In this document: piece by piece, positions 41,148 through 41,601 of the stretch | How the letters are laid out: every line of letters begins with the position of its first letter | Position numbering within the stretch: position 1 is the stretch's first letter | DNA from: Escherichia coli | GTDB lineage: Bacteria; Pseudomonadota; Gammaproteobacteria; Enterobacterales; Enterobacteriaceae | DNA: 64,000 nucleotides | NCBI RefSeq assembly: GCF_003790525.1 | Contig: NZ_CP033635.1 | Reading direction: 5' to 3' (one strand) | Made by a program: the position numbers and the translations under genes | Notes under the pieces: generated by a model | The model's input: the letters and a program-made list of their open reading frames with translations, nothing else | Told to the model about the DNA's origin: nothing | Database searches by the model: none

Positions 41148-41480
41148 GCGGTTTGCCAGCCTGACTCTTCAACGCAGGGAAGATGCGGCAAACGGCAAAC
41201 CTGCATACCAGCCAGGCACAGGCCAATCATGAAAGAGGAGAGGCTTTATGTTCTGGAGCCCTGAAGTAATAACGACGACCGGAAAATCGCTTCGCATCAC
41301 TCAAATTCAATTTAACATAATATACATTATGCGCACCAACATAACCCAAGGGAGAATCCAGTCGTTGGCGGTCATGATGTCCTGCTCATTAACAACGACC
41401 AAAACCCCATATCTTACTTAATACCGTATTCTCGGCTTAACCGGTCGTGCAACCTCAACACATTGGTTTCAACTACATCT

Positions 41481-41526
41481 TATCCGCTCTACGGGATAAA
41501 CGCTGCGATATCCGCGATCGCGGATA
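41481..41526. promoter_or_regulatory. Two HipB-operator-type palindromes (TATCC-N8-GGATA) with no adjacent hipBA
   Basis: TATCCgctctacgGGATA (41481..41498) and TATCCgcgatcgcGGATA (41509..41526), both perfect matches to the recalled HipB operator consensus TATCCN8GGATA; no HipB- or HipA-like ORF occurs anywhere in the window. Confidence 0.55.
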
Positions 41527-41601
41527 AAAAGGAGGATTTAAAAGTCGTTTGAAGTCGGCAATATTAAGCCGCATGCATCTTCGACATGCGGCTTATACGG
41601 T

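What the first reader, a model, noticed from the sequence alone, without database searches (positions are those of the whole stretch)
41148..41601. hipBA toxin-antitoxin module missing, but two perfect HipB-type operators remain
From memory the K-12 order is yneL, hipA, hipB, then the autotransporter. Here only about 510 bp separate the yneL remnant from the autotransporter 3' end, and no HipA- or HipB-like ORF exists on either strand. Two perfect TATCC-N8-GGATA palindromes (41481..41498 and 41509..41526, 10 bp apart) sit exactly where the hipBA operator array would be. Ten fixed bases matched twice within 46 bp is unlikely by chance. This looks like a deletion scar that removed the genes and perhaps the proximal operators, or a pre-insertion state of the locus. 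Orphan operators could still bind any HipB-like repressor encoded elsewhere.
Basis: partly seen in the sequence, partly recalled or inferred. Interest (0 to 1): 0.55.

Follow-up and report, generated by a model that had tools for sequence, protein, structure and literature searches.

The report
hipBA deletion scar with orphan operators
This E. coli strain (SMS-3-5) has lost the hipBA persistence toxin-antitoxin genes through an old 1.6-kb deletion, leaving the tail of hipA and two now purposeless HipB binding sites; this is an ordinary lineage-specific gene loss.

Summary
The window is the E. coli SMS-3-5 chromosome (phylogroup F, ST354). Perfect TATCC-N8-GGATA palindromes lie at 41481-41498 and 41509-41526 (0.05 expected per window).

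Alignment to K-12 shows they are the two promoter-distal operators of the four-operator hipBA array; window 41475-41534 is 100% identical to K-12. One 1,610-bp deletion (junction 41474|41475) removed:
- the two proximal operators
- the -35 and -10 promoter elements
- all of hipB
- hipA except its last 61 nt, which survive at 41414-41474 on the minus strand

That hipA remnant rules out a pre-insertion empty site. The identical junction in 163 of 5,426 complete E. coli genomes, including ST648 strain MS6198, rules out misassembly.

The deleted segment matches nothing else on the SMS-3-5 chromosome at blastn sensitivity. No promoter or gene remains for the operators to control, so they are most likely inert relics.

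hipBA is eroded in about 16% of complete genomes by several independent deletions; the O157:H7 allele occurs in 281 genomes. Three independent alleles end within 13 bp of each other at the third operator, a weak lead for a breakpoint hotspot.

Low interest; a known system.

The parts
40893..41159 (-). AraC-family (yneL-like) helix-turn-helix regulator pseudogene lacking its N-terminus; left neighbour of the scar
   Evidence: RefSeq annotation of NC_010498.1 (window coordinate = L002 coordinate + 34699). Aligns to K-12 yneL.
41160..41413 (.). Spacer between the yneL-like remnant and the hipA stop. 41225-41413 is homologous to the K-12 yneL-hipA intergenic region; about 41140-41225 diverges from K-12.
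   Evidence: blastn alignment to K-12 L001 3080-3915. No Rfam hit and no promoter or terminator consensus.
41414..41474 (-). hipA 3' remnant: last 19 codons, stop and 1 nt (VETNVLRLHDRLSREYGIK*)
   Evidence: tblastn of K-12 HipA residues 421-440, 80% identity. Collinear with K-12 L001 3855-3915. 97% nt identity to an intact hipA in strain BEC1-S17-ESBL-09.
41474..41475 (.). Deletion junction (TTTCAACT|ACATCTT). It joins K-12 positions L001 3915 and 5526, so 1,610 bp are missing. No microhomology.
   Evidence: Identical junction in 163/5,426 complete genomes.
41475..41534 (.). 60 nt 100% identical to the K-12 sequence upstream of the hipBA promoter (L001 5526-5585); holds the two retained operators
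   Evidence: alignment
41481..41498 (.). HipB operator TATCCGCTCTACGGGATA. Third from hipB, i.e. O3 if the promoter-proximal pair is O1O2 as in the oligo of PMC3376134.
   Evidence: K-12 L001 5532-5549, identical. Numbering.
41509..41526 (.). HipB operator TATCCGCGATCGCGGATA, the most distal of the four (O4)
   Evidence: K-12 L001 5560-5577, identical
41565..41595 (-). 11-12 bp stem-loop just 3' of the autotransporter gene end, conserved in K-12. Probably that gene's 3' hairpin and not part of hipBA.
   Evidence: -18.9 kcal/mol, z = -2.8; inverted repeat I2
41602..46538 (-). ECSE_1600-family (yneO-type) autotransporter; right neighbour of the scar. Here a pseudogene with its own 480-bp deletion at 41699.

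Best explanation
The interval is the scar of a single 1,610-bp deletion of the chromosomal hipBA type II toxin-antitoxin module, inherited within phylogroup F E. coli.

The ancestor had the standard arrangement: four HipB operators, the promoter, hipB, hipA. One illegitimate-recombination event joined a point 61 nt before the end of hipA to a point 6 nt on the promoter side of the third operator.

The deletion removed toxin, antitoxin and promoter together. No toxin was therefore left unneutralised, and the deletion was tolerated and became fixed in the lineage.

What remains is the hipA tail and the two promoter-distal operators. With no HipB, no promoter and no downstream gene, these operators are non-functional relics that have not yet decayed.

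Shown: the homology, the breakpoints, the population frequency and the absence of hipBA-like DNA elsewhere on the chromosome. Inferred: that it was a single event, the recombination mechanism, and that the operators are inert.
For: -: the window is 100% identical to NC_010498.1 (SMS-3-5).
- K-12 has four TATCC-N8-GGATA sites upstream of hipB. The window keeps the distal two at 100% identity over 60 nt and lacks K-12 L001 3916-5525.
- a HipA C-terminal remnant lies in frame at 41414-41474.
- base-level junction, compared with K-12 and with the closer intact allele L005.
- the same junction occurs in 163/5,426 complete genomes, in three sequence haplotypes. Carriers include MS6198 (phylogroup F, ST648). 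SMS-3-5 is phylogroup F, ST354.
- some carriers have an intact autotransporter, so the hipBA deletion is separate from, and probably older than, the neighbouring 480-bp deletion.
- the SMS-3-5 chromosome gives 2 places with window 40700-42700 alone, and still 2 when the 1,611-bp deleted segment is appended. The deleted segment therefore matches nowhere else.
- 184 genomes have no match at all to the deleted segment.
- no ORF, promoter consensus or Rfam family lies beside the operators.
- (PMC3376134): HipB represses hipBA by cooperative binding to four operators with this consensus, and hipA deletion has no phenotype in K-12.
Against: - The junction has no microhomology, so the recombination mechanism is unknown.
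- The direct phylogroup F ancestor is not available. The breakpoints are defined against K-12 and one B2/G-like relative.
- Spread of the allele by homologous recombination, rather than pure vertical descent, is not excluded.
- Both operators are perfect in all 7 carriers examined, which could hint at constraint. However, only 8 of 312 columns vary, with 0.9 expected inside the operators (P of none about 0.38), so this is uninformative.
- Protein-level HipB/Xre paralogues and the SMS-3-5 plasmids were not searched.
Confidence: 0.93

Rival explanations
1. Pre-insertion (ancestral empty) state: hipBA was never present in this lineage and was inserted in other lineages.
For: PMC6896753 inferred a 'gain' of hipA in the G+B2 sublineage from presence/absence data, which implies absence in phylogroup F.
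Against: - The site carries the last 61 nt of hipA in frame, 97% identical to an intact allele.
- It also carries two of the module's own operators.
- An empty target site would have neither. The scar shows loss in F, not gain elsewhere.
Confidence: 0.01
2. Assembly artefact: a collapse across the locus in the SMS-3-5 assembly.
For: None found.
Against: The identical junction is present in 163 independently sequenced complete genomes from humans, dogs, poultry, wildlife and water.
Confidence: 0.005
3. The orphan operators are retained because they still function: as a binding site for another Xre/HipB-like repressor encoded elsewhere, as a decoy, or as part of the 3' regulatory region of the autotransporter.
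For: - Both sites are perfect in every carrier examined, while the 10-bp spacer between them has 2 substitutions in one haplotype.
- HipB is reported to bind similar palindromes at other promoters: relA, eutH, fadH (PMC3920263).
- Independent deletions in O157:H7 and strain 95-3322 also keep the most distal operator.
Against: - No HipB-like DNA is found elsewhere on the chromosome.
- No promoter consensus or gene is positioned to be regulated.
- The conservation is statistically uninformative (P about 0.38).
- Allele B379 lost all four operators without obvious consequence.
Confidence: 0.05

Closest known systems
E. coli K-12 hipBA operator array (four TATCC-N8-GGATA HipB sites overlapping the hipBA promoter)
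   Same: The two sites are identical in sequence, spacing (28 nt start to start) and flanking context to the two promoter-distal K-12 operators. They lie at the same position relative to the autotransporter 3' end.
   Different: The proximal pair, the -35 and -10 elements, hipB and hipA are absent. The sites no longer overlap any promoter and their repressor is not encoded.
O157:H7-type hipBA deletion allele (281 complete genomes)
   Same: Independent natural loss of hipB and the promoter at the same locus. Its operator-side breakpoint is only about 12 nt from the SMS-3-5 one, and the most distal operator is retained.
   Different: It keeps about 1.1 kb of the hipA 3' part as a pseudogene. It breaks inside the third operator, so only one whole operator is left. 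Its junction has 4 nt of microhomology.
Decayed or orphan chromosomal type II toxin-antitoxin loci, e.g. the orphan higA in CFT073/NRG857c (PMC7232551)
   Same: Lineage-specific erosion of a chromosomal toxin-antitoxin module that leaves partial remnants.
   Different: In that case a gene (the antitoxin) survives. Here only cis-acting sites and a 19-codon toxin tail survive.

Membership tests
HipB operator (hipBA autoregulatory site) | Matches the consensus TATCC-N8-GGATA | tested here: met
   Two exact matches at 41481 and 41509. Consensus as stated in PMC3376134 and PMC3920265.
HipB operator (hipBA autoregulatory site) | Orthologous in position and sequence to the characterised K-12 operators | tested here: met
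   60 nt are 100% identical to K-12 L001 5526-5585, which holds the two distal operators.
HipB operator (hipBA autoregulatory site) | Bound by HipB | not testable with these tools
   Inferred only from sequence identity to K-12. No HipB is encoded in the window, and no hipBA-like DNA elsewhere on the chromosome at DNA level.
HipB operator (hipBA autoregulatory site) | Overlaps or flanks the hipBA promoter and represses it | tested here: not met
   The -35 TTGACT, the -10 TATAAT and the two proximal operators of K-12 lie inside the deleted segment. No sigma-70-like site is found at 41100-41700.
hipBA type II toxin-antitoxin module | Intact hipB (Xre-HTH antitoxin) ORF | tested here: not met
   No tblastn match better than E = 5.8 in the window. 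The whole gene lies within the deleted interval.
hipBA type II toxin-antitoxin module | Intact hipA (Ser/Thr kinase toxin) ORF | tested here: not met
   Only residues 421-440 of 440 are represented.
Deletion scar (as opposed to an empty insertion site) | Remnants of both ends of the lost element flank a single junction | tested here: met
   The hipA 3' tail lies on one side and the distal operators on the other, abutting at 41474|41475.
Deletion scar (as opposed to an empty insertion site) | A real allele in the population, not an assembly error | tested here: met
   163/5,426 complete genomes share the junction.

The most novel reading that the evidence does not exclude
The third HipB operator may be a recurrent breakpoint for hipBA loss. 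Three independent deletion alleles have their operator-side ends within 13 bp of each other, at or next to that palindrome:
- phylogroup F type, 163 genomes
- O157:H7 type, 281 genomes
- strain 95-3322, 1 genome

Two of these alleles (F type and 95-3322) also have hipA-side ends 6 nt apart.

This could mean that the HipB-bound, sharply bent palindromic operator array promotes illegitimate recombination. It could also mean that the distal operator segment is kept by selection for a role independent of HipB.
Probability: 0.12. Interest if true: 0.35.

Novelty: already known. Interest (0 to 1): 0.14.

Why it matters
It matters little for mechanism. The sites are the known K-12 hipBA operators, and losing a chromosomal toxin-antitoxin module is commonplace; hipBA is incomplete in about 16% of complete E. 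coli genomes.

Three modest points follow:
- Phylogroup F lineages that include multidrug-resistant ExPEC clones (ST648, ST354) are natural hipBA nulls. hipA7-type high-persistence mutations cannot arise in them.
- The scar corrects a published presence/absence inference. hipA was lost in phylogroup F rather than gained in G+B2 (PMC6896753).
- The junction is a simple lineage marker.

Tried and rejected
- **Rfam:** a scan of 40500-42000 at E <= 1 gave nothing.
- **Promoter and terminator consensus scan of 40800-41800:** no site near the operators.
- **Repeats at the breakpoints:** I looked for direct repeats or microhomology and found none for this allele.
- **Decay of the orphan operators:** I aligned 7 junction carriers. 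There are 8 variable columns, none in the operators, but the test has no power.
- **Operator numbering:** I tried to confirm it in the Schumacher 2009 and 2015 papers, which are not held. I used the O1O2 oligo sequence in PMC3376134 instead. It shows that O1 and O2 are the promoter-proximal pair, so the retained sites are O3 and O4.
- **Second hip locus in SMS-3-5:** I used a chimeric DNA query instead. This excludes only DNA-level relatives on the chromosome.
- **Phylogroup of carriers:** literature searches for strains other than MS6198 and SMS-3-5 gave nothing useful.

Full report
**Identity of the window and check of the observation**

The region 40700-42000 is 100% identical to the chromosome of E. 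coli SMS-3-5, NC_010498.1. The literature types this strain as O19:H34, phylogroup F, ST354 (PMC11537424).

The pattern TATCC-N8-GGATA occurs exactly at 41481-41498 (TATCCGCTCTACGGGATA) and 41509-41526 (TATCCGCGATCGCGGATA), 10 nt apart. A third exact match lies at 37331. Shuffles of the window give 0.05 expected matches, and none of 100 reached three.

The MG1655 annotation confirms the recalled K-12 order: yneL, hipA, hipB, then the yneO autotransporter pseudogene, all on one strand.

**What the palindromes are**

K-12 has four exact TATCC-N8-GGATA sites upstream of hipB, at L001 5465, 5493, 5532 and 5560. Read in the hipB direction, the order is:
- two distal sites
- then -35 TTGACT, overlapping the third site
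- then -10 TATAAT, overlapping the fourth site
- then the hipB start codon

Window 41475-41534 is 100% identical over 60 nt to K-12 L001 5526-5585, which contains the two distal sites. So the two palindromes are genuine hipBA operators by orthology, not look-alikes.

HipB represses hipBA by cooperative binding to four sites with this consensus (PMC3376134; PMC3920265). The 'O1O2' oligonucleotide printed in PMC3376134 is the promoter-proximal pair. In that numbering the retained sites are O3 and O4.

**The breakpoints**

- Window 40638-41474 aligns to K-12 L001 3080-3915.
- Window 41475-41699 aligns to L001 5526-5763.
- K-12 hipA occupies L001 3855-5177 and hipB 5177-5443, both on the minus strand.

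The window therefore lacks L001 3916-5525, which is 1,610 bp. That segment holds all of hipA except its last 61 nt, all of hipB, the promoter and the two proximal operators.

The surviving hipA tail at 41414-41474 (minus strand) translates as VETNVLRLHDRLSREYGIK*. This is 80% identical to K-12 HipA residues 421-440. At DNA level it is 97% identical to an intact hipA in strain BEC1-S17-ESBL-09 (L005).

The junction reads TTTCAACT|ACATCTT. Compared with both K-12 and L005, it has no microhomology.

**Deletion, empty site or artefact**

An empty pre-insertion site would carry neither the last 19 codons of hipA nor part of the module's own operator array. This is a deletion.

An 80-nt probe centred on the junction finds full-length matches in 163 of 5,426 complete E. 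coli genomes and no partial matches at the E-value cutoff used. Assembly error is therefore excluded.

The carriers come from humans, dogs, poultry, pigs, wildlife and water. They include MS6198, a phylogroup F ST648 strain (PMC8281228).

Three junction haplotypes exist:
- identical to SMS-3-5
- a 1-nt deletion in the hipA tail
- two substitutions in the 10-bp spacer between the operators

Carriers LR-60 and 23CRST026 have an intact autotransporter, whereas SMS-3-5 has a further 480-bp deletion in that gene. So the hipBA deletion is a separate event from the autotransporter lesion and probably older. It is shared by at least two sequence types of phylogroup F.

PMC6896753 inferred that hipA was 'gained' in the G+B2 sublineage. 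The scar shows instead that the phylogroup F lineage lost it.

**Is hipBA elsewhere in the strain?**

The 1,611-bp deleted segment, taken from the closest intact allele, was searched with blastn (word 11). It matches 5,242 of 5,426 genomes, always at 90% identity or more. 184 genomes have no match at all, and no diverged paralogue appears in any genome.

For SMS-3-5 itself I compared two searches at the same threshold:
- Window 40700-42700 alone gives 2 places on its chromosome.
- The same sequence with the deleted segment appended on the opposite strand still gives 2 places.

The deleted segment therefore adds no match. hipBA has not moved elsewhere on the chromosome. Distant protein-level relatives (YjjJ-type kinases, other Xre antitoxins) and the plasmids remain untested.

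**What the remnant does**

- No ORF of note lies next to the operators.
- There is no sigma-70-like promoter or terminator consensus in 40800-41800.
- There is no Rfam family.
- The stem-loop at 41565-41595 is conserved in K-12 and sits just after the autotransporter gene, so it belongs to that gene.

With repressor, promoter and target genes gone, the most likely status of the two operators is inert relics.

Their perfect conservation in all seven carriers examined is not evidence of constraint. Only 8 of 312 aligned columns vary, about 0.9 would be expected inside the 36 operator bases, and the chance of seeing none is about 0.38.

Removing toxin, antitoxin and promoter in one step explains why the deletion was tolerated. 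In K-12, hipA deletion has no phenotype (PMC3376134).

**Context: hipBA is often eroded**

Only 4,567 of 5,426 genomes (84%) hold at least 80% of the K-12 hipBA-plus-operator segment. Other alleles seen:
- **O157:H7 type:** hipB, the promoter, 2.5 operators and the 5' part of hipA are lost. About 1.1 kb of hipA and one whole operator are kept. The junction has 4 nt of microhomology and occurs in 281 genomes.
- **Strain 95-3322:** a singleton allele.
- **Strain B379:** a K-12-like allele that lost all four operators.
- **Other lineages:** internal hipA truncations and IS insertions.

The F9-fimbriae and AIEC papers describe this neighbourhood as variable but call hipBA 'relatively well conserved' (PMC3966885; PMC7232551).

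**A lead noticed on the way**

The operator-side breakpoints of three independent alleles fall within 13 bp, in K-12 L001 coordinates:
- phylogroup F type: 5525|5526
- 95-3322: 5537|5538
- O157:H7: 5537|5538 to 5541|5542

The F and 95-3322 alleles also have hipA-side breakpoints 6 nt apart, at 3915 and about 3921.

If three breakpoints fell at random in the 223-bp hipB-autotransporter spacer, the chance that all lie within 13 bp is about 0.01. That figure is post hoc, and I found these alleles by looking at the weakest matches, which biases the sample. It is a lead for a hotspot at the bent, protein-bound palindrome, not a result.

**Verdict**

The feature is a known regulatory element stranded by an ordinary, lineage-wide gene loss. 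Interest is low.

Noticed in passing
window 41699 (K-12 L001 5764-6243 missing): A second, separate 480-bp deletion lies in the C-terminal beta-barrel region of the ECSE_1600/yneO-type autotransporter. It has 1 nt of microhomology and makes the gene a pseudogene in SMS-3-5. Some hipBA-deletion carriers (LR-60, 23CRST026) have the autotransporter intact, and WB61 has a different, shorter lesion there.
   Followed up: partly
window 37331-37348: A third exact TATCC-N8-GGATA (TATCCTGCGACCTGGATA) lies inside the F9 fimbrial usher gene, about 4 kb from the scar. It is conserved in K-12 (L001 3055) and B379. It could be chance (0.05 expected per window) or an unrecognised HipB site. HipB is reported to bind similar palindromes at other loci (PMC3920263).
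   Followed up: no
L006 2799 (O157:H7), L012 2505 (strain 95-3322), window 41475: Three independent hipBA deletion alleles end within 13 bp of each other at the third operator. Two of them also have hipA-side ends 6 nt apart. This may be a breakpoint hotspot, but the sample is small and ascertainment-biased.
   Followed up: partly
window about 41310-41316: Other strains (L005, L011) carry a multi-gene island here, between the AraC-type remnant and hipA. It encodes a LysR regulator, a glutamine amidotransferase-domain protein, an aldo/keto reductase and a carboxymuconolactone decarboxylase. SMS-3-5 and K-12 lack it.
   Followed up: no
window about 34700-35573 (L002 1-874): An IS3-family transposase abuts a truncated ydeR, so the F9 fimbrial operon is disrupted in SMS-3-5. 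This agrees with its 'D' (disrupted) status in PMC3966885.
   Followed up: no
L007 1082-1166 (strain 20, NZ_CP064847.1): One hipBA-deletion carrier has a local duplication of about 130 bp just beyond the distal operator, covering the hairpin and autotransporter 3' end region.
   Followed up: no
H232, NZ_CP038374.1 (O157:H7 strain F3113): At least one O157:H7 genome has full-length hipBA while 281 genomes carry the O157-type deletion. That loss is therefore polymorphic within the serotype, or the locus was restored by recombination.
   Followed up: no
window 41140-41225: An approximately 85-nt stretch at the truncated 5' end of the yneL-like pseudogene aligns poorly with K-12 and O157 but matches strain Z142-7. 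This suggests different truncation histories of the AraC-type regulator.
   Followed up: no
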